IMG/VR virus record: IMGVR_UViG_3300038379_000423 | Coordinates: 3,429 to 67,428 of that record | From: a virus | Taxonomy: Duplodnaviria > Caudoviricetes | Strand: one strand, 5' to 3' | Length of the DNA stretch: 64,000 nucleotides | Shown here: positions 10,720-25,759 of the stretch, piece by piece | Layout of the letters: each line of letters begins with the position of its first letter | Numbering within the stretch: position 1 is the stretch's first letter | Notes under the pieces: model-generated | Told to the model about the DNA's origin: nothing | Databases searched by the model: none | The model's input: only the letters and a program-made list of their open reading frames with translations | Program-made: the position numbers and the translations under genes

Positions 10720-11658
10720 CTATTCAGTATAGAGCAGACGCCCCAGGCACAGGACCAGAATGGCATAACCATTAGTTACCAGTATCGGCTGATTAAATGC
10801 TTCAAGCACGGCGAGAGCAAATTGCCTCTTATTGCTATTCGGAGTAGACCTTGCAACCTGATAGTAGTATCCAAAGATACCCAATCGCACAGACTCCGCC
10901 GAAAGCCCGGCCTTCTCCATGTCGCTTAGATAACCCATCAGACCAGGCCAGAGAGTATCCGGACTAGTGCCTTGAATTAAGGCTCTGCACAGATCAATAA
11001 CCTCAGCCTTGCGAGTGGCGACCTTCACCACCTCGGAGGCTTCTTGTCGGTTTGCGCAGTTCCTCACCAACAGAAGGTTTACAAGAAGTTGTCTAGGGGA
11101 ACCAGCCGCGGCCCTTACCGCGACCGAAACCGCCGACGGATTGACCTTCCAGTTTTCAGCGCTGAGCACACGGGATGCCAGCATCTTGAGGTCGTCCGAT
11201 GACACACTACTCAGCGCCAAGTGAAGGGACCTAGTGCGGATAGTTTCTGGAACCTTAGATGGTTCCGTAGTGCAAAGAAACCAGTAGGTACCCTCTACCG
11301 GCTCTTCAAGAATTTTAAGAAGACTTTGCCAAGCCGACTTAGATAGGGCGTGGCACTCATCAATCATTATCGCCCGTTTTTCGGAAAACAGCGATCGCCG
11401 CCGGCTCATCCCCGACAACTCCCGCATGTCCTCTACTCCAGAGTTCGTGGCAGCGTCGATCTCCAGACAGTCTAAAGCCCCCAACTGCTCCGCGACAATT
11501 CTGGCAAGTGTAGTTTTTCCAGTTCCCGAGGGCCCAGAAAACAAAAAAGTCCTGGCGCCGCCTTGTTTCAGCACACCTCGCAAAGCTTTAACGACTGGAT
11601 CCTGCCCTATTACTTCACTCAGAGTTTTCGGGCGGTACTTATTGTAGAGCACGTCCAT
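10720..11658 (-). CDS. dnaX: DnaX (gamma/tau)-like clamp loader AAA+ ATPase
   Basis: LYNKYRPKTL..VIGQ, GPSGTGKTT, DAATNSGV, IDECH.LS..A..LLK.LEEP, TIRTRS; start set at ATG overlapping the polymerase stop. Confidence 0.92.
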   Translation of the reverse strand: MDVLYNKYRPKTLSEVIGQDPVVKALRGVLKQGGARTFLFSGPSGTGKTTLARIVAEQLGALDCLEIDAATNSGVEDMRELSGMSRRRSLFSEKRAIMIDECHALSKSAWQSLLKILEEPVEGTYWFLCTTEPSKVPETIRTRSLHLALSSVSSDDLKMLASRVLSAENWKVNPSAVSVAVRAAAGSPRQLLVNLLLVRNCANRQEASEVVKVATRKAEVIDLCRALIQGTSPDTLWPGLMGYLSDMEKAGLSAESVRLGIFGYYYQVARSTPNSNKRQFALAVLEAFNQPILVTNGYAILVLCLGRLLYTE

Positions 11659-14261
11659 CAAAACCTCCAACGATCCGAACGAAAGTCTCCAACCGTCCTC
11701 AAATTGTATAAATCCGGCCCTATTGACACTTCCACTGAAAGGGGCACTGTAATAAAATCATACGGAATTCGCAGCATCTCAGTAATTATAGCTTCCATAC
11801 AGACATCTAGTTTCTTCTTAGGCACGAAAAATGTCAAGTCATCGTGCACATTAAGGTTGGACTGTAATTCCTCCACCTCCATCTCGGACAGCCTATTCTG
11901 GGCATTCACCGTAATGTCGGAAGATGGCCCCTGCACCGGATAGTTAGCCCGCATATTAGGCGTTAGCGGGGCTAGATACCGCCGGCCGGTGACCGCCTGT
12001 ATATACCCGAGAGTCCTGTACTGGGAATCAACTGACTGTTGCCAACTCTTCACTCCTGAAAAATCGTCCCAGAACTCTTCAAACAATGGGGAGGCTTCCT
12101 GGGCACTCAAACCAAGCAAGGAAGATACTTTATTCAGTGTCGCGTTATAAAATAGCGGAAATACCCATTTATTTTTGACTTCGCTACGAAGGGTCTTCAT
12201 AACGGATTTGTCCCTAAGGAATTTACGCCCTCCGATCAATCTCGGATACGCGCTCGCGATCTTCTCGGCCCACACAGCGTGCACATCATAAGTGCCATGT
12301 ACCAAAGAATCAACCAGAAACGCACATCCGGATAAGGCACCGATGACGCGGGCCTCTAATTGACCGTAGTCGACCGAGATAGCCCAATATCTTCCTGCGG
12401 CATCCGCAAACTGCTGCCGAATAAAGGCGTACTTTCTTTTCGGCAAGTTTTGCCCGTTTGGTTGCTCGGAGGACGTTCTTCCGGTAGCTGTAGAAGTATC
12501 ATTAAAAATAGGATGGAGACAATAACCAAAAGTAGGATGTGAATAGACGATGGGCGAGTCCTTCGAATAGTTGTCCGAATACGTAGACAATAATTTTAGG
12601 TACGGCTTTACTTGCAAGAACTTCTTAGCAACAGGATGATCAACTTTAGAGATACTACCCTCATCGAGTCGATCTGGGTAAATACCCAGACTACTGAACA
12701 GGCCGGCGACATGCTGGGGCTTGGAACAACTGAAACTCGTCCCCAACTTCTTCTGGAACTCGGCAACTCCTGGCAGACTTAAGAATTCGCTCAGAACCTC
12801 GTCTCGCTCAGAGGATAATCTACCATTCAGACTAATGACTGTCGGCATCGACAATGGCACAGACTTTATCTGGGTGCGGACAAGTGTGGATATTCTCCTA
12901 AGGTGCTCATCCCGGTAAAACTTCCACAGGTCCTCAGTTACTAGACGCCTTTTCAGAACCTTATGCAGCCGCAAATGCAGTCTTGCATCAACGGCGTTAT
13001 ACAGCAAAACTCTCGAAAGATCCGCCGAGGAAAGATGCTTCCTATCCACGGTCACCAAGGACTTACCACTGACCCCGAAATGCTCGGTAGTCAAAAAGTC
13101 CAGGCTAAGCCCGCCAGAATCACCGCCGTGCCCAAATCCGCTTAGATCACTCCCCGCTGCCCGGCGGCTACCCAAGCAGTACGCCATAGCCATTGTACAG
13201 TCCCACTGACCAACCCTCATCAGGTCGGGCCTGGCAAAGTACACGCCGAGCCATTCGAACTCGAACGCTAACTTGTGCACTGTCTTTACGCCACGGTACG
13301 TGCTTAAAAAGTCGAGAAACAACTGTTTTAGTTTAGTCTTACAACGGTCCGGCCACAAAGACTCCGGATGATCTAAAGAAAAGGCAAAGACCACCTCCGA
13401 AACCTCATCTTTGCCAGCCAAGCCCACTGTCAAAACTTTACCGTCTCTGTACGGCCGCAAGGCGCTTGTCTCGAAGTCGATTCCTACGGCTCGGCCGCAG
13501 GAGAGTCTACTAAACAACCGACGAATTTCTTCCAACTCCTGCGCAGGTCTCCTCCCCAAGTAAGTAGCAATCCCGCTTAGCAGTTTCTCCTTCGTATGGA
13601 CCACTGGAGGTGTATAACTTCCTTCCAGATACTGAATGGCCCTTTTCATATCCAGACCAAAGACAAACTCGTCTTCGCTTGGATACACCTTGCCGTTAGA
13701 AGCTGCAAACCGTTTGCGGAGGAGATATGACGGATGATGAAATGGGAAGAACCAACAAGTATGGCCGCCAACAGTAACTGGGATGCGCCGACCTCGCCAT
13801 AGGTACATCGGGCGGGAACCCCCAAGCACCCAATTCAAGGCGGTGCCCCCGAAACCAAATATGGCCTTTGGTTTCGTGGCAGCAATGTCTGAAACCACAG
13901 ATGGCCTACAGCACTCCAACTCTACAACCGTAGGCGTTCTATTATCAGGGGGCCTGGACCTAACACAGTTGTTCCATCGAATCTCCGCCGACCAACTCTC
14001 TGGAATAAATGCCCGCAGGAAAGCCCCGGACTTTCCCACGAACTGCCGGCCCACTCTATCCTCTTCCTGACCAGGGGCCTCTCCGAGAATATAGATTACG
14101 GGTTTCGAGGATCCCGTTGGCAACATATGCCCGTGCTTATTAGCTACTACATTAAGTGGACAAACCTGGCATTGGTACTCATGCAGAAAGGCTATCGGTA
14201 GATTAGCAGGATTATCTTTTCCGGTGGCTTCTACGACCGGGTCAACAAATAAGGTCCCCAC
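11658..14261 (-). CDS. polA: Family A DNA polymerase with N-terminal family-4 UDG-like domain and 3'-5' exonuclease
   Basis: UDG: GEAPG, HPSYLLR; exonuclease: IDFET, HKLAFE, YNAVD; polymerase: DYGQLEAR, RSEVKNKWVFPLFY, VHDD. Confidence 0.93.
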   Translation of the reverse strand: MGTLFVDPVVEATGKDNPANLPIAFLHEYQCQVCPLNVVANKHGHMLPTGSSKPVIYILGEAPGQEEDRVGRQFVGKSGAFLRAFIPESWSAEIRWNNCVRSRPPDNRTPTVVELECCRPSVVSDIAATKPKAIFGFGGTALNWVLGGSRPMYLWRGRRIPVTVGGHTCWFFPFHHPSYLLRKRFAASNGKVYPSEDEFVFGLDMKRAIQYLEGSYTPPVVHTKEKLLSGIATYLGRRPAQELEEIRRLFSRLSCGRAVGIDFETSALRPYRDGKVLTVGLAGKDEVSEVVFAFSLDHPESLWPDRCKTKLKQLFLDFLSTYRGVKTVHKLAFEFEWLGVYFARPDLMRVGQWDCTMAMAYCLGSRRAAGSDLSGFGHGGDSGGLSLDFLTTEHFGVSGKSLVTVDRKHLSSADLSRVLLYNAVDARLHLRLHKVLKRRLVTEDLWKFYRDEHLRRISTLVRTQIKSVPLSMPTVISLNGRLSSERDEVLSEFLSLPGVAEFQKKLGTSFSCSKPQHVAGLFSSLGIYPDRLDEGSISKVDHPVAKKFLQVKPYLKLLSTYSDNYSKDSPIVYSHPTFGYCLHPIFNDTSTATGRTSSEQPNGQNLPKRKYAFIRQQFADAAGRYWAISVDYGQLEARVIGALSGCAFLVDSLVHGTYDVHAVWAEKIASAYPRLIGGRKFLRDKSVMKTLRSEVKNKWVFPLFYNATLNKVSSLLGLSAQEASPLFEEFWDDFSGVKSWQQSVDSQYRTLGYIQAVTGRRYLAPLTPNMRANYPVQGPSSDITVNAQNRLSEMEVEELQSNLNVHDDLTFFVPKKKLDVCMEAIITEMLRIPYDFITVPLSVEVSIGPDLYNLRTVGDFRSDRWRF

Positions 14262-14271
14262 CTCCGCCCCC

Positions 14272-15411
14272 TTAAGCTGGCAGAGATGCAGAAGAAGCTG
14301 ACGCTAATAGGAACAAAGTCCCGGAGGGTTGCCTCACTTGTACTCTTGACTCCCTACCGAGAAATGCTATCTCGGAGGGTCCCCCGGAAGTGAGAATAGC
14401 TAGCAAAGGCACTGGGTCGTACATGGCCGAAAACTCTGGATAAGCAAACGGGACCCTATCCGTAATCAGCCCCGTTACATTTTTAGTGGTGATGCTCAAG
14501 TAACGGCCATCAGCTGTGAATAAAGTGGCTGGGGACTCCATCCATTGTCTATCTAGCATGATCTTAGCCCGCTCGAGACAGGCTATTAACGATTTACTCA
14601 CTGGGATGTAATTCGGCTTCTCTCGCACCTTTATGATTCTCTTAAAATCCAATGGTTGCTCTGACAGAATAACTTGGGAACAAATCATGCCCCACGGCGG
14701 CTGAATAGAAAACACGTTACCATCGAAACCGGAGGAAGCGTCCGTAAACTGCGCCAAGATAGAGCAGAAATCTATCGGCCAGATAACACGCCGGTGAGAA
14801 AGAGTCTGAGAAAACCTCTTTTTAGCGTCTCTCGAGCCGCCAACCTTAACCATCGTTCGTAGCAACGATGTACCGTTAGTGGCATAAAGCGCCAATCTCT
14901 TAAGGGTTTGATCCGGATCGAAAACCGGCTCCAGCGTAATACCCAACTTCTCCGGAGTTAGATTAGTTGCCCCAAATAAAGGCTGGCACTTTTTCACGGC
15001 GGGCCCCACCTCGTGTAGTGTCACCAAATTTTCGGTAGCCACAGCGGGTGTCTTAAAAGCTAGGCTCTCTGGGGTATTGGCCAGCGTTACTCTTGTCCTA
15101 CCGACTGAAAATTTAACATTCCCGTCGATTACGACAATCGAAATTTCTTTCCCGCGTACGGACTCCAAAATAGTAGACAAAGTCATACCGGGCACGGCGA
15201 ACGGCTCCGCAACCCCGGTCTCCAAAGCACACTTTGCCGTCAAGGAGCCGTTGTGTGCCGTTATCGATCCACGTCTAAAGACCACCGACGTGAGCGCCTT
15301 AATCAAGGTTTTTTCTTTAGCGACGGCCGGGGAGATCCGTCGGAGGCCCTCCCTCAAATCTTCCAGGGGGATTTTGTACTTCTGGGAGGCAGAGGCAGCA
15401 ACAGCAGACAT
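14272..15411 (-). CDS. Beta sliding clamp (DnaN)-like protein
   Basis: 379 aa, clamp size; N-terminal L...L......A...IKAL..V......A.NG pattern; lies next to PolA and DnaX. Confidence 0.65.
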   Translation of the reverse strand: MSAVAASASQKYKIPLEDLREGLRRISPAVAKEKTLIKALTSVVFRRGSITAHNGSLTAKCALETGVAEPFAVPGMTLSTILESVRGKEISIVVIDGNVKFSVGRTRVTLANTPESLAFKTPAVATENLVTLHEVGPAVKKCQPLFGATNLTPEKLGITLEPVFDPDQTLKRLALYATNGTSLLRTMVKVGGSRDAKKRFSQTLSHRRVIWPIDFCSILAQFTDASSGFDGNVFSIQPPWGMICSQVILSEQPLDFKRIIKVREKPNYIPVSKSLIACLERAKIMLDRQWMESPATLFTADGRYLSITTKNVTGLITDRVPFAYPEFSAMYDPVPLLAILTSGGPSEIAFLGRESRVQVRQPSGTLFLLASASSASLPA

Positions 15412-15433: not shown

Positions 15434-16645
15434 TTACGCACTTTCGTAATCTGCAGGATTTTCGTCACCTGCAAGAGTCTTTAACCAAGTCTTCCGATTT
15501 TGTAAATTGGTAGCCCTAACTTTTTCGTGCAAAGGACTGCCCCATTGGGGACCGAGAGTCTTTATCCTATCAGATACTCCCACTGAGCATGGACCACCAT
15601 GAAGTGCGGTGCGAAGGATCTTAACAGACTCGGCGGCACTTCTCCCTTTTCTGCCCTTCTTGATTTCTCTGGCGATATCCCAATAGCTCAACAAGATAAA
15701 CTTTATATCATTGCGGGACAGCGCATAACACAAATCGAAATGGCCGAATGTAGTCGCATAGTATACTTCCTGGAGGCTCTGCTGGAAAGTTTCTTTGCTC
15801 TTTATAGGGTCCTTGGACGCCAACAGGGAAGTGCGGGAAGATAGCACCAAAGGTTTCGGCACCGCCCGGAAGAACTCTTTCATGGCCCTCGTATTTAGTA
15901 CCGTAAGATCGGAGTAATGGAAGGAACAATCGTCCACACTTAGCCCCGATTTCCGGCACCAGTCTTCTACCTTTTCTCTTTCCGCCGGCGGAAGCGTCAA
16001 GAACGTCCTGCTCAAAATTACCGCGCCCTTGCGATTGGGCCGATTTGAGACTAAGACCGGGCGCATCCCGATTTTACCAGAATTCTCGCGCTCTACATTC
16101 ACGGGAACAAGCATCCGGCCCATTGCCGCATATCTAACCCATGATGTAGAATCTATAGAGAAGAAAGGATACACAGGTGTAAGAGAGAAACTGGTATTGC
16201 CGAAACCGTGTAATCTAATATTAGTCCCATCAAAACCGATCTTCATTAAGAAGTCGTAACAGTCCGCCAGCCAAGCTCTGGCGCCGTGGATAGAGACCTT
16301 CTTATAACTCAAGCCAATGTAATCATCACCATCGTTAAGCATCCTTTCCAACCAATAAAACCGCTCTCCTTGGTGGAAAACGGGGATCGGCTTCAACCCA
16401 TGCGACTTGAGAGCCTGTAAGTTTTCATACGAGACGCGGGCGCTCTCCTCGCCCTCTTCTGGCGTGGCATATCTTCCGGGTTCGGCAGGGATCTTGTCTA
16501 AGTTAACGTATCTATAAACAAGGTCCTGGTTATCCAGGATAAACCGGGCGTACTCCTGGATATCCACCGAAGACCGCTGCCGCCAAGCCGAGAAAGCTCC
16601 CGAGTCCAACATCAAGCGGTACTTGGGCTCCTCAGATCGCGGCAT
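15434..16645 (-). CDS. dpdA: DpdA-like (TGT-fold) DNA 7-deazaguanine transglycosylase
   Basis: TGT-fold motifs LDSGAFS, NLD, PIPVFH, HGFG, SIDSTSW; no tRNA-TGT zinc motif; adjacent to FolE and QueD. Confidence 0.8.
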   Translation of the reverse strand: MPRSEEPKYRLMLDSGAFSAWRQRSSVDIQEYARFILDNQDLVYRYVNLDKIPAEPGRYATPEEGEESARVSYENLQALKSHGLKPIPVFHQGERFYWLERMLNDGDDYIGLSYKKVSIHGARAWLADCYDFLMKIGFDGTNIRLHGFGNTSFSLTPVYPFFSIDSTSWVRYAAMGRMLVPVNVERENSGKIGMRPVLVSNRPNRKGAVILSRTFLTLPPAEREKVEDWCRKSGLSVDDCSFHYSDLTVLNTRAMKEFFRAVPKPLVLSSRTSLLASKDPIKSKETFQQSLQEVYYATTFGHFDLCYALSRNDIKFILLSYWDIAREIKKGRKGRSAAESVKILRTALHGGPCSVGVSDRIKTLGPQWGSPLHEKVRATNLQNRKTWLKTLAGDENPADYESA

Positions 16646-17573
16646 AGTTCTGATCCTGCTGAAGTGCCAACCGAATAAACTCTTCCCTCACCTTATTTTT
16701 AGTCATAAAATTCCCGGCCAGACTAGATGTAGTAAAAACCGTGCCTTGTCTTTCGACTCCGCGACTTTCTACGCACAAGTGTCTGCAACGGAGTACCACA
16801 CCGGCTCCTAGAGGAGACAGCCCGTCCACAATAACGGAGAGGATTTCGTTAGTCAGCCTCTCCTGTATTTGGAGCCTTCGTGAAAGGGCTGCAACGACCC
16901 TGGAGAATTTAGACAGGCCGAGCACCTTACCATCCGGCAGATACCCGATATGGGCAACCCCAAAAAACGGGGCCAGATGATGCTCGCAGAGACTATACAC
17001 TGGGATGCCAGACACCAGGACCATTCCCGAGGATTGGGCGTGATCGAATGTCTTCAAAATGCTGCGGACGTCCACAGTGTACCCAGACACCCAGTGGGCC
17101 CAAGCCCTGACAAATCGTTCGGGGGTTTCGCACAGGCCCTCCCTGGAGGGGTTCTCTCCGGGGATAGACTGCAACAAGCGCAGTACAGCATCCTTAACCG
17201 GGGGCTCGGACTTCTCCCACGGAAAGGAAATCCAGCCGGCTTGCAACCTTTCCGCTTTAGAAACCAACGCTATAAAATTAGCCAAAGGATACTGTTCCTC
17301 AAATCTCATCCTTGTGCTACTACTATCTTCGATATCATCAATAATGAAACAGGAGGCAGAGTTAACCGGTTTATCAACAAGAATAAAATTCACGTCGCAC
17401 GCGCGTAGTCTCTGTGCTAGTGCCAACACTACCACAGCACCTCCTCTCGGCACGCCATAGATCGTCATTGGATCGCGGTCAAAGAAGGGACGTCGTGCTG
17501 AATAGTACGCGGCAAGTCGTCCGGCAAACCTATCGAGCCGCTCTTCAATTTGTTGCAAAGACAGGTCCATCAT
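16632..17573 (-). CDS. folE: Fusion of N-terminal type I phosphoribosyltransferase (Gpt/XPRT-like) and GTP cyclohydrolase I
   Basis: PRTase: YGVPRGG, IIDDIEDSSST, WISFPWE; FolE: REGL.ETPER, SLCEHH, GLSK, RRLQIQERLT, HLCV..RG. Confidence 0.9.
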   Translation of the reverse strand: MMDLSLQQIEERLDRFAGRLAAYYSARRPFFDRDPMTIYGVPRGGAVVVLALAQRLRACDVNFILVDKPVNSASCFIIDDIEDSSSTRMRFEEQYPLANFIALVSKAERLQAGWISFPWEKSEPPVKDAVLRLLQSIPGENPSREGLCETPERFVRAWAHWVSGYTVDVRSILKTFDHAQSSGMVLVSGIPVYSLCEHHLAPFFGVAHIGYLPDGKVLGLSKFSRVVAALSRRLQIQERLTNEILSVIVDGLSPLGAGVVLRCRHLCVESRGVERQGTVFTTSSLAGNFMTKNKVREEFIRLALQQDQNYAAI

Positions 17574-18265
17574 CTCCTCCTTTCTCTCAGCAAAAGCCCG
17601 CGAGCTTCTAAGAAGTTCAAAGTGTGCCGGAACTCACTTCCGAGCGCGTTGGCACTGTTATACTTCATACATACTCCCCACTCGTTAAGTATATGCACCA
17701 ATTGGGTGGCGCTGGCGTTTCTTCGCCGCAAAACTGCTAGTTTTAGCGCCACCTTTTTCACGGACCGCGACAGGTCTACACCGGTGGCATACGGGACCAA
17801 ACTGTCATCGAGTAGCCCCTCTCGATCAAGAACCGCCAGAGTATGAAGGAAATCGGTGCGCACGAACCAGACTGTGTGAAGAGATACACCGATTTTCTTA
17901 GAAACACGCGCAAAGACTAATCCTAAGCTTTGCGAAGGATCCTCCAGTATGATCTCTTTAATCGCTTCGCTAACCCCTCGACGGCGGCGCCCCACTACCG
18001 TCTCGGATTTACGGTCTGGAAGTACTTTCTGACGATCCAGAAATCTTAACTCACCCTCTATGATAGCGTTTACAACACGCTGAGTGAGCTCCGATAACTC
18101 TTCCCACTTATCATCTCTCCATCGAATAACCTTCGGTACGTGCTCAAATAAATAACGCAGTGCGGGTTGTTTCGGATCTCGTTCGTAGCCGCCCACAATT
18201 GCTACTTCTCGAGCGGCCGCTAGATAGACTTCGTCGGTTTGCCATTCGGGCTTAAGATAGATCAT
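17570..18265 (-). CDS. Hypothetical protein with two tandem HTH-like repeats
   Basis: Two segments of about 60 aa ending FLHTLAVLDREGLL and FRHTLNFLEARGLL; overlaps both neighbours by 4 nt. Confidence 0.7.
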   Translation of the reverse strand: MIYLKPEWQTDEVYLAAAREVAIVGGYERDPKQPALRYLFEHVPKVIRWRDDKWEELSELTQRVVNAIIEGELRFLDRQKVLPDRKSETVVGRRRRGVSEAIKEIILEDPSQSLGLVFARVSKKIGVSLHTVWFVRTDFLHTLAVLDREGLLDDSLVPYATGVDLSRSVKKVALKLAVLRRRNASATQLVHILNEWGVCMKYNSANALGSEFRHTLNFLEARGLLLRERRR

Positions 18266-18729
18266 TTTCCCGATCCTCGTCTGACGATGGCAGAGTTACC
18301 TGGGTGCTCGCGAACCTCAACCGAGGTTAGCGAGACGCGGGGGGCATATCCGTTATCTAACAACCACACCTCGGCGCACTCAAAGATAAGCTCGGCCAGA
18401 GCTTCACAACCAGTGCGCTCGACTTCTATGAGCTTGAGAATTCCTCGGCGTTCGGCTTCCAGGAACCAATCGTACTCCGGATCATCTTTCGCAACGAGTG
18501 TCTTATGGTCCAGGGTATCCTCCAACCAGCCCTTCAAGGATTTAAGGCTGCCGAAATCAACCACCCATCCCGTATGGTCTAATTCGGCCGCCTCAAACTC
18601 GAATCGTACTTCGAGGGCATACCCATGCAGAAACCGGCAATGGGAATGGGCTCGCCACTGCCGGAAGGCACATGATAGGCCGGCCGAATGTGGATAAGTC
18701 TTGGTGCTAGAATATATGAAGGTCCTCAT
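18262..18729 (-). CDS. queD: QueD/PTPS-family 6-carboxy-tetrahydropterin synthase
   Basis: CAFRQWRAHSHCRFLHGY, WVVDFG, LDHKTL, VEVRE...NSA. Confidence 0.9.
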   Translation of the reverse strand: MRTFIYSSTKTYPHSAGLSCAFRQWRAHSHCRFLHGYALEVRFEFEAAELDHTGWVVDFGSLKSLKGWLEDTLDHKTLVAKDDPEYDWFLEAERRGILKLIEVERTGCEALAELIFECAEVWLLDNGYAPRVSLTSVEVREHPGNSAIVRRGSGK

Positions 18730-25000: not shown

Positions 25001-25759
25001 CTAGCGCAGATCTAACGTCTTATGCAGTTGGTTAGAAATGGAGTAGCCAAACTTCAGGGATGAGCTTATAGCCGCCGCTCTATTGAGGCGATTAAGTCTG
25101 GGGTCGTACTCATCGCAGGGCTGTACATAGATCCTCGACCTCGGAAATTTCTTCGGGGGCCTAGCTAATTCTGCGAGGGCAGGAGGCCACGAACCATCTT
25201 CAGGGCCAGTACTCGGAGGTTTCTGAGTAGAACCGATCGGCAACCCGTCCTCCTCGCTAACTTTGCCGTGTTGAATAATGTACTTGTAGTAGTTAATGGA
25301 GTTTGAGTCTATCGAAAGTCTTGGCGTCTTCGGGCTACAGATGATTCGCACGCGACCCGGAGGCTGTTGCCAGACCTGGTGCAGCATCCTCGATCCCGAT
25401 GTCTCAATTTCCACATCTCCGAGAAATTTTTCTAGGTACTCCGCTGCAAAGTACGGCACGGGCTGTTGCAGGAGAGGTTCCCCGCCAGTAAGTACCAGTA
25501 ATCTTGGGGTTCCGGCAGCCAATTCCCGGATTTTTGTGAAGACCCTGTCGAACGTAAGTCGTTCGGACTTCTTCTCATCGAAGTCCGTGTCACAGAACGC
25601 ACATCTCAGGTTACATCCGCCCAGACGCACAAATACGGCCGATACTCCAGTGGAAGGCCCCTCCCCCTGCACAGTAAGAAAGATTTCTCTTACAAGTAAA
25701 GTTCCAGGTTTAGAAACATCCTTCTCATGCGATACGAGGTTCCGGCCCCACATCTTCAC
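25001..25759 (-). CDS. queE: QueE radical SAM 7-carboxy-7-deazaguanine synthase
   Basis: EIF.TVQGEG..G..AVFVRLGGCNLRCAFCDT, TGGEP, IETSG, CSPK, Q.HK. Confidence 0.93.
   Translation of the reverse strand: MKMWGRNLVSHEKDVSKPGTLLVREIFLTVQGEGPSTGVSAVFVRLGGCNLRCAFCDTDFDEKKSERLTFDRVFTKIRELAAGTPRLLVLTGGEPLLQQPVPYFAAEYLEKFLGDVEIETSGSRMLHQVWQQPPGRVRIICSPKTPRLSIDSNSINYYKYIIQHGKVSEEDGLPIGSTQKPPSTGPEDGSWPPALAELARPPKKFPRSRIYVQPCDEYDPRLNRLNRAAAISSSLKFGYSISNQLHKTLDLR

What the first reader, a model, noticed from the sequence alone, without database searches (positions are those of the whole stretch)
15434..18729. 7-deazaguanine pathway with a PRTase fused to FolE next to a DpdA-type transglycosylase
Seen: residues about 1-120 of the FolE ORF form a Gpt/XPRT-like PRTase (PRGG loop, IIDDIEDSSST PRPP motif with GG changed to SS, WISFPWE), and the gene overlaps the DpdA-like gene. 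Established: FolE-QueD-QueE convert GTP to CDG, and DpdA swaps a 7-deazaguanine base into DNA, releasing guanine. Inference, three options: (a) the PRTase recycles released guanine to GMP/GTP and closes a loop feeding FolE; (b) it activates the deaza base to a nucleotide for pre-replicative incorporation by the phage PolA, giving two routes in one phage; (c) it is vestigial.
Basis: partly seen in the sequence, partly recalled or inferred. Interest (0 to 1): 0.75.

Follow-up and report, generated by a model that had tools for sequence, protein, structure and literature searches.

The report
Trimmed guanine-salvage enzyme fused to FolE
A phage that probably swaps guanine in its DNA for a 7-deazaguanine carries, fused to the first enzyme of that pathway, a cut-down guanine-salvage enzyme; this overlooked fusion is common in such phages and probably recycles the guanine that the swap releases.

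Summary
ORF 16632-17573 (-) has a full GTP cyclohydrolase I domain (residues 126-313). It also has a real Gpt-type 6-oxopurine phosphoribosyltransferase (PRT) domain (residues 1-125). For the PRT domain, the family profile matches solved XGPRTs at E about 1e-13, and the AF2 model (pLDDT 93) has E. coli XGPRT as its top fold match.

The fusion is not peculiar to this phage. Hundreds of metagenomic clusters have it, and so do 34 cultured phage records (VpKK5, PaMx25, NP1, MMDA13 and others), where it is annotated only as "GTP cyclohydrolase". In PaMx25 the N-terminal half is mis-annotated as a wrong-frame gene. In IMG/VR, 24 of 25 fused genes with at least 3 kb of flank on both sides have a DpdA within 3 kb. 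Stand-alone versions occur in phages with fully replaced G: directly upstream of FolE in immuto_2-6A, and elsewhere in the genome in phiST.

The catalytic residues are almost invariant across the family. However, the Gpt flexible loop is deleted, and the window's copy has Ser at the near-invariant PRPP-loop Gly.

My best reading (about 0.5) is guanine to GMP salvage that feeds FolE and removes DpdA's by-product. The rivals are a TubE-like CDG phosphoribosyltransferase, and a non-catalytic domain. No paper in the searchable library mentions this domain. I also noticed that the adjacent DpdA appears circularly permuted.

The parts
17199..17573 (-). N-terminal Gpt-type phosphoribosyltransferase (PRT) domain, residues 1-125 of the 313-aa ORF. 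PPi loop PRGG at residues 42-45. PRPP loop DDIEDSSST at residues 79-87 (nt 17313-17339). Lys106. WISFPWE at residues 114-120.
   Evidence: phrog_8995 E 6e-6. HHalign against E. coli Gpt: probability 98.1%, E 1e-13. Profile against PDB XGPRTs: E about 1e-13. AF2 pLDDT 93.4. Foldseek top hit is XGPRT.
16632..17198 (-). GTP cyclohydrolase I (FolE) domain, residues 126-313 plus the stop codon.
   Evidence: PF01227 E 2.7e-59, covering profile positions 3-177 of 179. NF006825 scores 199.5 bits against a cut-off of 174. phrog_2197 E 4e-61.
15434..16645 (-). DpdA-type DNA guanine transglycosylase, 403 aa. It overlaps the FolE stop region by 14 nt. Its topology looks circularly permuted.
   Evidence: phrog_887 E 8e-34. 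DpdA1 HMM E 1e-57. AF2 pLDDT 85.6. VIA-align top hit is 7ui4 'DNA preQ0 insertase DpdA', Z 13.7.
17570..18265 (-). 231-aa ORF of unknown function between QueD and PRT-FolE. It contains a repeated helix-turn-helix-like segment. Its stop overlaps the fusion's start by 4 nt.
   Evidence: No Pfam, NCBIfam or PHROG hit. The protein atlas gives only weak structure leads to tandem HTH proteins, TM below 0.5.
18262..18729 (-). QueD-like 6-carboxytetrahydropterin synthase, 155 aa, with motif CxxxHGY instead of CxxxHGH.
   Evidence: PF01242 E 9e-21. phrog_2389 E 6.5e-44. It is the only PTPS-like gene in the record. Motif census.
25001..25759 (-). QueE-like radical-SAM CDG synthase, about 6 kb away from the cluster.
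   Evidence: PF04055 E 1e-11. phrog_2076 E 1.4e-40.
11658..15411 (-). Downstream replication genes in the same order as in Queuovirinae: sliding clamp (14272-15411), then family-A DNA polymerase with an N-terminal UDG-superfamily domain (11658-14261).
   Evidence: phrog_947 E 9e-13. PF00476 E 7e-40 and PF03167 E 8e-21. Synteny with VpKK5, PaMx25 and MMDA13.

Best explanation
The 313-aa ORF is a two-domain enzyme. Its N-terminal domain is a trimmed Gpt-type 6-oxopurine phosphoribosyltransferase (PRT). Its C-terminal domain is GTP cyclohydrolase I. It is a conserved but overlooked part of phage DpdA / 7-deazaguanine DNA-modification clusters.

Most likely mechanism:
1. DpdA exchanges guanine in phage DNA for a 7-deazaguanine base and releases free guanine.
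2. The PRT domain condenses that guanine, and any other free guanine, with PRPP to give GMP.
3. Cellular kinases raise GMP to GTP.
4. The FolE domain of the same protein commits GTP to the QueD and QueE steps that make CDG.

This loop returns one purine for each base exchanged. It also removes guanine, which is both the by-product of the exchange and a competing substrate for it.

Shown here: the identity and fold of both domains; conservation of the catalytic residues across the family; the fusion or adjacency to FolE; and the tight linkage of the fused gene to DpdA.

Inferred: that guanine is the substrate; that the domain is active without the Gpt flexible loop; that guanine removal helps DpdA; and that the window's own copy, with Ser at the PRPP-loop Gly, still works.
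For: Domain identity. The family profile against E. coli Gpt gives probability 98.1% and E 1e-13. The profile against the PDB finds only 6-oxopurine PRTases, with XGPRTs best at E 1.6e-13. The fold matches XGPRT.

Active-site conservation in 157 fusions of about 30-50% identity:
- P42 156, R43 152, G44 156, G45 157.
- D79 156, D80 154.
- D83 151. This aligns with Gpt Asp92. From my own knowledge, an Asp at this position is specific to 6-oxopurine PRTases and contacts N7.
- S84 147, G85 156, T87 156.
- K106 127, which aligns with Gpt Lys115.
- W114 154, which aligns with Gpt Trp134.
- W119 157.
The sites checked (the PPi loop, the acidic pair, the PRPP loop and the FPWE motif) stay fixed whether or not the locus has QueC, and whether the domain is fused or free.

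Link to FolE:
- The PRT domain is N-terminal to FolE in 56 of 80 IMG/VR loci and in 34 cultured phage records.
- It is a separate gene directly upstream of FolE in Flavobacterium phage immuto_2-6A.
- It is directly downstream of FolE, after a dNMP kinase, in Brevundimonas phage MaInes.

Link to DpdA:
- 44 of 56 fused loci have a DpdA on the same strand within 3 kb.
- 24 of 25 do so when at least 3 kb flanks both sides.
- In the window the two genes overlap by 14 nt.

Other points:
- Stand-alone copies occur in the phages reported to replace all G, phiST and immuto. That is where guanine release would be greatest.
- A chromosomal PRT-FolE paralogue occurs in three Dehalococcoidia genomes with no QueC. 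Near the fused gene there is also no DpdA or QueD/E. This argues that the domain acts on an ordinary purine rather than on a deaza base.
Against: - No activity has been measured.
- About 14 residues matching the Gpt flexible loop (Gpt residues about 59-72) are deleted, and so are about 11 residues after Lys115. From my own knowledge, that loop closes over the active site in type I PRTases.
- The window's copy has Ser at Gly85. This Gly is near-invariant (268 of 274), although one other lineage also has D-S-S.
- Guanine and CDG/preQ0 share the O6, N1 and N2 face, so conserved Lys and Trp do not tell them apart. TubE shows that a purine PRTase homologue can be CDG-specific.
- The Dehalococcoidia fusions show that the architecture does not need DpdA.
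- Only 34 of 405 phage records with a FolE match include the N-terminal part. Phages reported at about 25-30% replacement exist, so the domain is at most auxiliary.
- GMP must still pass through two kinase steps before it reaches FolE, so the fusion does not join consecutive reactions.
Confidence: 0.5

Rival explanations
1. The domain is a 7-deazapurine phosphoribosyltransferase like TubE or ToyH. It would attach CDG, or another pathway base, to PRPP and make a deazaguanine ribonucleotide. That nucleotide would then be a nucleotide-level intermediate, possibly feeding pre-replicative incorporation.
For: - TubE, a 194-aa purine-PRTase homologue in a FolE-QueD-QueE cluster, is a CDG-specific PRPP transferase in vitro (PMC6112128).
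- The window's record has FolE, QueD and QueE but no QueC, so CDG may be its end base.
- Stand-alone homologues occur in phiST and immuto, where G is completely replaced.
- In phiST and MaInes the PRT gene lies near ribonucleotide reductase and dNMP kinase genes.
- Cui et al. note that an ADG nucleoside was seen in cells infected with phage CP220.
Against: - The Asp aligned with Gpt Asp92 is kept in 151 of 157 fusions. From my own knowledge, that residue contacts N7, which deazapurines lack.
- The domain is fused to the first enzyme of the pathway, not to the last ones.
- The PPi loop, PRPP loop and FPWE motif are the same in phages with different end products: Gat-QueC, QueC, QueF-like, DpdN, DpdL and no QueC.
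- DpdA uses the free base, so a CDG or preQ0 PRTase would drain its substrate.
- The fusion occurs in Dehalococcoidia genomes without QueC.
- I saw no kinase or reductase genes among the window ORFs I scanned.
- Cui et al. argue that all known cases are post-replicative.
Confidence: 0.2
2. The domain does not catalyse anything, at least in this phage. It would be a PRTase-fold ligand sensor (for PRPP, GMP or guanine), or an assembly module that tunes FolE. In the window's copy it could instead be a decaying remnant.
For: - The Gpt flexible loop and a second segment are deleted in the fused forms.
- The window has Ser at the near-invariant PRPP-loop Gly, plus a rare 2-residue insert just before the PRPP strand.
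- From my own knowledge, PRTase-fold regulators such as PurR and PyrR keep a PRPP motif.
- The domain is always attached to, or next to, FolE rather than to DpdA.
Against: - Every residue class needed for chemistry is near-invariant across sequences only 30-50% identical: the PPi loop, the Mg/ribose acidic pair, the candidate catalytic Asp, and the phosphate-loop Ser and Thr.
- Free-standing genes of the same family exist.
- The window's copy keeps the rest of the listed motif core (P42-G45, D79, D80, D83, S84, T87, K106, W114, F117-E120).
- A second lineage also carries D-S-S, which suggests a tolerated variant rather than decay.
Confidence: 0.2

Closest known systems
E. coli xanthine-guanine phosphoribosyltransferase (Gpt/XGPRT; PDB 1a95, 1a97, 4jls)
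   Same: Same fold and same subfamily; it is the best sequence and structure match. The window keeps the PPi loop (SRGG versus PRGG), the acidic pair, Asp92, Lys115, Trp134 and the W-x-x-x-P-W-[DE] motif.
   Different: The window's domain is about 125 aa against 152 aa. The flexible loop (about 14 aa) and an 11-aa segment after Lys115 are deleted. It is fused to FolE. In this copy the PRPP loop is DSSST rather than DTGGT. Its activity is untested.
phrog_8995 stand-alone phage 'phosphoribosyl transferase' (Cellulophaga phiST CGPG_00045, Flavobacterium phage immuto_2-6A gp211, Brevundimonas phage MaInes 00780)
   Same: Same domain family: the window hits at E 6e-6, phiST at 1e-65, and MaInes at 4e-24. 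All are encoded in phages with FolE/QueD/QueE, and the gene is adjacent to FolE in immuto and MaInes.
   Different: These are free-standing genes of 131-161 aa, and some keep a longer loop. They accompany DpdA3-type enzymes rather than a DpdA1-related one. The papers I read do not discuss them.
TubE / ToyH, the PRPP transferases of tubercidin and toyocamycin biosynthesis
   Same: They are purine-PRTase homologues encoded with FolE, QueD and QueE homologues. TubE uses CDG and PRPP.
   Different: They are bacterial secondary-metabolism enzymes of 194 aa and are not fused to FolE. I could not obtain their sequences here, so relatedness beyond 'purine PRTase' is untested.
Unfused phage FolE of 7-deazaguanine clusters, and Gat-QueC as another fused enzyme of the same pathway
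   Same: Same pathway and the same gene order: QueE, QueC, QueD, FolE, DpdA, clamp, PolA.
   Different: Most phage FolE matches lack the N-terminal domain: 371 of 405 records. The described fusion in this pathway joins an amidotransferase to QueC, not a PRTase to FolE.

Membership tests
Type I PRTase, 6-oxopurine (Gpt/XGPRT) subfamily | Homology and PRTase core fold | tested here: met
   HHalign against E. coli Gpt: probability 98.1%, E 1e-13. Profile against PDB XGPRTs: E 1.6e-13 to 6e-12 over the full length. Foldseek finds XGPRT at probability 1.0, TM 0.63-0.67.
Type I PRTase, 6-oxopurine (Gpt/XGPRT) subfamily | PPi-binding loop (x-R-G-G) | tested here: met
   P42-R43-G44-G45. These positions are conserved in 152-157 of 157 family members.
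Type I PRTase, 6-oxopurine (Gpt/XGPRT) subfamily | PRPP motif: acidic pair plus the D-[ST]-G-x-T phosphate loop | tested here: inconclusive
   D79, D80, D83, S84 and T87 are present. The loop Gly is Ser85 in the window. That Gly is found in 156 of 157 fusions and 268 of 274 domains. The effect of Ser on PRPP binding is unknown.
Type I PRTase, 6-oxopurine (Gpt/XGPRT) subfamily | Purine-site residues of Gpt: Asp92, Lys115, Trp134 | tested here: met
   They align to D83, K106 and W114. These are conserved in 151, 127 and 154 of 157 members respectively. The roles of these residues are from my own knowledge of XGPRT structures.
Type I PRTase, 6-oxopurine (Gpt/XGPRT) subfamily | Flexible catalytic loop between strands 2 and 3 | tested here: not met
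   There is a gap of about 14 residues opposite Gpt residues 59-72, in the window and in the other fused forms. Some stand-alone phage homologues keep a longer loop.
Type I PRTase, 6-oxopurine (Gpt/XGPRT) subfamily | PRPP-dependent nucleotide formation from guanine, xanthine or hypoxanthine | not testable with these tools
   This needs an enzyme assay or complementation of a gpt hpt mutant.
GTP cyclohydrolase I (FolE, type IA) | Full-length match above the curated cut-offs | tested here: met
   PF01227 scores 200 bits against a cut-off of 27, covering profile positions 3-177 of 179. NF006825 scores 199.5 against 174. The C-E-H-H and H-x-C motifs are visible in the translation; their role as zinc or catalytic residues is from my own knowledge.
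DpdA (DNA guanine transglycosylase, TGT superfamily) | Sequence relationship to phage DpdA | tested here: met
   phrog_887 E 8e-34. An HMM built from DpdA1 sequences gives E 1e-57 over residues 5-262. The invariant D14-S-G motif is shared with PaMx25, VpKK5 and MMDA13 DpdA.
DpdA (DNA guanine transglycosylase, TGT superfamily) | TGT-type TIM-barrel fold | tested here: met
   VIA-align hits: 7ui4 DpdA Z 13.7 (235 aligned, rmsd 4.0), arcTGT 1iq8 Z 13.0, TGT 3unt Z 12.4. Foldseek was only weak: TGT 2pot at E 3.5e-3.
DpdA (DNA guanine transglycosylase, TGT superfamily) | Canonical strand order, with beta1-alpha1-beta2 before the DSG strand | tested here: not met
   The DSG motif is at residue 12. 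The TGT-family hits start at chain residues 76-91, while generic TIM barrels align to model residues 5-354. The C-terminal segment matches the DpdA1 N-terminus at HHalign probability 89%, E 2.4e-6.
TubE/ToyH-type 7-deazapurine PRTase | Closer relationship to TubE/ToyH than to Gpt, or use of CDG as substrate | not tested
Their activity is known only from PMC6112128.

The most novel reading that the evidence does not exclude
The PRT domain, and its stand-alone relatives in the fully substituted phages phiST and immuto, is a phage 7-deazaguanine (CDG-type) phosphoribosyltransferase. It would make deazaguanine nucleotides, and so reveal a nucleotide-level, possibly pre-replicative, branch of phage 7-deazaguanine DNA modification that runs alongside DpdA base exchange.
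Probability: 0.17. Interest if true: 0.85.

Novelty: new variant of a known kind. Interest (0 to 1): 0.55.

Why it matters
Phage 7-deazaguanine DNA modification is described as FolE, QueD, QueE and QueC (plus tailoring enzymes) together with DpdA. Three key papers on the phage pathway never mention a phosphoribosyltransferase in their main text, and targeted library searches found nothing either.

Yet a Gpt-like domain is fused to FolE, or encoded next to it, in many such phages. These include cultured, tractable ones: VpKK5, the PaMx25/NP1 group and MMDA13 with the fusion, and immuto and MaInes with an adjacent gene. phiST also carries a stand-alone copy, though elsewhere in its genome.

If the domain salvages guanine, the pathway is a closed purine cycle, and removing guanine may set how far DpdA can drive replacement. 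If instead it acts on a deaza base, the current view that all such modifications are post-replicative would need revising. Either outcome can be tested directly with existing phages and simple assays.

The result also corrects annotation. In PaMx25 RefSeq the domain is hidden behind a wrong-frame 'hypothetical protein' and a truncated folE.

Tried and rejected
Genomic context of the metagenomic homologues therefore came from IMG/VR and GTDB loci instead.
- The listing of cluster members gave no useful names.
The cellular distribution is therefore only sampled.
- 'Relatives' cannot be drawn for a virus record.
- QueC (PF06508) is absent from the 67-kb record. The record is only about 69% complete, so absence from the phage is not proven.
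- I tried to show DpdA in phiST, immuto and MaInes with phrog_887, PF01702 and the immuto DpdA3 protein. All failed, even where DpdA3 is published. Those negatives are therefore uninformative. Only a weak N-terminal similarity (E 2e-5) links a MaInes 266-aa protein to the immuto DpdA3.
- The DpdA family profile against PDB sequences gave only spurious serpin (MENT) hits. Foldseek on the DpdA model gave weak Rubisco and TGT hits.
- The supplements of Cui et al. 2023 are not held.
- TubE and ToyH sequences could not be fetched, so I made no direct comparison with the deazapurine PRTases.
- I considered whether the 231-aa ORF could replace QueC or be DpdL. No enzyme family matched, and it looks HTH-like. 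I rejected the idea as unsupported.

Full report
**What is in the sequence**

The region 15434-18729 holds four tightly packed minus-strand genes:
- a DpdA-like gene, 15434-16645;
- a 313-aa ORF, 16632-17573;
- a 231-aa ORF, 17570-18265;
- a QueD-like gene, 18262-18729.

Downstream lie a sliding clamp and a family-A DNA polymerase. A QueE-like radical-SAM gene sits 6 kb upstream at 25001-25759. The window belongs to a 67,428-base IMG/VR virus record estimated at 69% complete.

**The fused ORF**

Residues 128-302 are a full-length GTP cyclohydrolase I domain: PF01227 E 2.7e-59, and NF006825 above its curated cut-off.

The first 125 residues give only weak single-sequence hits: phrog_8995 at E 6e-6, the Gpt model at E 1.7e-3, and PDB XGPRT at E 0.02. 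The family profile is decisive:
- HHalign of 157 aligned fusions against E. coli Gpt gives probability 98.1% and E 1e-13 over 112 columns.
- A profile of 72 N-terminal fragments finds only 6-oxopurine PRTases in the PDB, led by XGPRTs at E about 1e-13 over their full length.
- An AlphaFold2 model of residues 1-126 has pLDDT 93.4, and its best Foldseek matches are E. coli XGPRT structures.

So the PRTase fold and Gpt-subfamily homology are established.

**How it differs from Gpt**

The domain is shorter than Gpt by two deletions. About 14 residues are missing where Gpt has its flexible loop, and about 11 are missing after Lys115.

Residues that do chemistry in Gpt are almost invariant in the family, although members share only 30-50% identity:
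- the PRGG loop;
- the acidic pair D79/D80;
- D83, S84, G85 and T87 of the PRPP loop;
- K106 and W114;
- the FPWE motif.

The window is the single exception at G85 among 157 fusions. Its loop reads D-S-S-S-T, and the codon is AGT. In a wider census, 268 of 274 domains have Gly at this position. Only two other sequences really lack it, and one of them also reads D-S-S. This looks like a rare tolerated variant rather than obvious decay, but I cannot tell what it does to PRPP binding.

**How common the fusion is**

The whole protein finds thousands of metagenomic relatives. The best 120 are all 287-346 aa long and cover 84-100% of the query. The N-terminal domain alone finds 218 representatives at the 50%-identity level.

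In cultured phages, 34 records cover at least 80% of the query. These include Vibrio phage VpKK5, the Pseudomonas phages PaMx25, NP1, JG012 and JG054, Stenotrophomonas and Xanthomonas phages, Sphingomonas phage MMDA13, and Variovorax phages. All are annotated simply as GTP cyclohydrolase.

The three I inspected, VpKK5, PaMx25 and MMDA13, share the window's gene order: QueD, PRT-FolE, DpdA, clamp, PolA. VpKK5 and PaMx25 belong to the Queuovirinae. In PaMx25 the true ORF is a 297-aa fusion. RefSeq annotates it as a short folE plus a wrong-frame 'hypothetical protein'.

**Linkage to the pathway**

Among 80 IMG/VR loci carrying the domain:
- 74 have FolE;
- 56 have it fused in one ORF;
- 70 have QueE;
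- 64 have QueD.

With HMMs for DpdA, 44 of the 56 fused loci have a DpdA on the same strand within 3 kb. The figure is 24 of 25 when at least 3 kb flanks both sides.

Where the domain is not fused, it is a 130-165-aa gene usually next to FolE. Cultured examples:
- Flavobacterium phage immuto_2-6A, where PRT is directly upstream of FolE;
- Brevundimonas phage MaInes, with the order dNMP kinase, FolE, PRT;
- Cellulophaga phage phiST, where the gene lies elsewhere in the genome.

phiST and immuto are the phages reported to replace all G, with dDG and fdPreQ1 respectively, through DpdA3.

In GTDB genomes the pattern-limited scan found a Limnohabitans MAG contig carrying the full phage-type cluster. 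It also found chromosomal PRT-FolE paralogues in three Dehalococcoidia genomes. In L092 the fused gene is followed by carboxylesterase genes. Each of these genomes also has a canonical FolE and no QueC.

**Mechanism**

The most economical reading is guanine salvage. DpdA releases one guanine per exchanged base. A Gpt-type enzyme would convert it to GMP, and after two kinase steps it becomes GTP, the substrate of the fused FolE. The points in favour:
- the Gpt-type active site is kept, including the Asp that is typical of 6-oxopurine PRTases;
- the conserved partner is FolE rather than QueC, QueE or DpdA;
- the PPi loop, acidic pair, PRPP loop and FPWE motif do not change between phages that make different end products;
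- the fusion also occurs in bacteria without a preQ0 pathway.

That guanine removal also helps the exchange reaction is my inference from TGT-type chemistry. I give this reading about 0.5.

The main rival is a TubE-like enzyme. TubE is a purine-PRTase homologue encoded with FolE, QueD and QueE homologues, and it specifically joins CDG to PRPP (PMC6112128). The window's pathway may stop at CDG, and stand-alone PRTs sit in the fully substituted phages. I give this rival about 0.2.

A non-catalytic, sensor or decaying domain also gets about 0.2. The reasons are the missing flexible loop and the window's Ser85.

**Literature**

The main texts of Hutinet 2019, Cui 2023 and Olsen 2023 contain no occurrence of 'phosphoribosyl'. 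Five targeted searches of the library found no paper linking such a domain to FolE or to 7-deazaguanine DNA. The library is incomplete, so this shows only that the domain is not prominent in the open literature.

**Side finding: the DpdA gene**

The DpdA next door is related to DpdA1: phrog_887 E 8e-34, and a DpdA1 HMM at E 1e-57. Its order of elements is unusual, though:
- It begins directly at the catalytic D-S-G strand. It lacks the roughly 55-residue N-terminal segment of DpdA1 and has a roughly 100-residue C-terminal extension.
- That extension carries the two motifs of the missing segment in the right order. It matches the DpdA1 N-terminus profile-to-profile at probability 89%, E 2.4e-6.
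- The AF2 model has pLDDT 85.6. Its best structural match is the solved DpdA 7ui4 (Z 13.7), followed by arcTGT and TGT.
- All of those TGT-family matches start at chain residues 76-91, while generic TIM barrels align through model residue 354.

This is the pattern expected of a circular permutation. Of 120 homologues, 96 start at the D-S-G motif. I did not follow this further.

**Verdict**

The fusion is an undescribed variant of a known enzyme family placed in a known pathway. Its chemistry is inferred, not shown. It is a useful and easily tested lead rather than a categorical novelty.

Noticed in passing
window 15434-16645 (-): The DpdA appears circularly permuted relative to DpdA1, bacterial DpdA and TGT. 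The catalytic D-S-G strand is at residue 12. The usual N-terminal beta-alpha-beta segment sits at the C-terminus, at residues about 288-324. Of 120 homologues, 96 begin at the D-S-G motif, in two length classes of about 265-285 aa and about 350-420 aa.
   Followed up: partly
L001 5862-6792 (Pseudomonas phage PaMx25, NC_041953.1): RefSeq annotates a wrong-frame 124-aa 'hypothetical protein' gp38 plus a 191-aa folE. The real ORF, L001 5899-6792, is a 297-aa PRT-FolE fusion.
   Followed up: yes
window 18262-18729 (-): The QueD-like protein has CxxxHGY where QueD has CxxxHGH. The same variant occurs in 17 of 61 QueD genes of the related IMG/VR loci, both with and without QueC nearby. It is not the DpdL motif LxxxHRHxF.
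   Followed up: partly
window 17570-18265 (-): A 231-aa ORF with no family match is inserted between QueD and PRT-FolE, with 4-nt overlaps at both ends. It holds an internally repeated HTH-like segment. The atlas structure leads are weak, TM below 0.5.
   Followed up: partly
window 11658-14261 (-): The family-A DNA polymerase carries an N-terminal uracil-DNA-glycosylase-superfamily domain: PF03167 E 8e-21 at residues 50-186.
   Followed up: no
protein P0208 (582 aa, metagenomic): This PRT-FolE homologue has an intein with an HNH endonuclease inserted in the FolE domain.
   Followed up: no
L092, L094, L095 (Dehalococcoidia / Tepidiformaceae MAG chromosomes): These chromosomes carry a PRT-FolE paralogue with intact PRT motifs. 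It is followed by carboxylesterase genes (scanned in L092), and no DpdA or QueD/E was detected nearby in any of the three loci. Each genome also has a canonical FolE, and no QueC was detected.
   Followed up: partly
L087 670-1470 (Brevundimonas phage vB_BpoS-MaInes): A 266-aa hypothetical protein between QueE and PolA shares an N-terminal motif with the DpdA3 of phage immuto (pairwise E 2e-5). It may be an unannotated DpdA3. In the same phage the genes run dNMP kinase, FolE, PRT in a row.
   Followed up: partly
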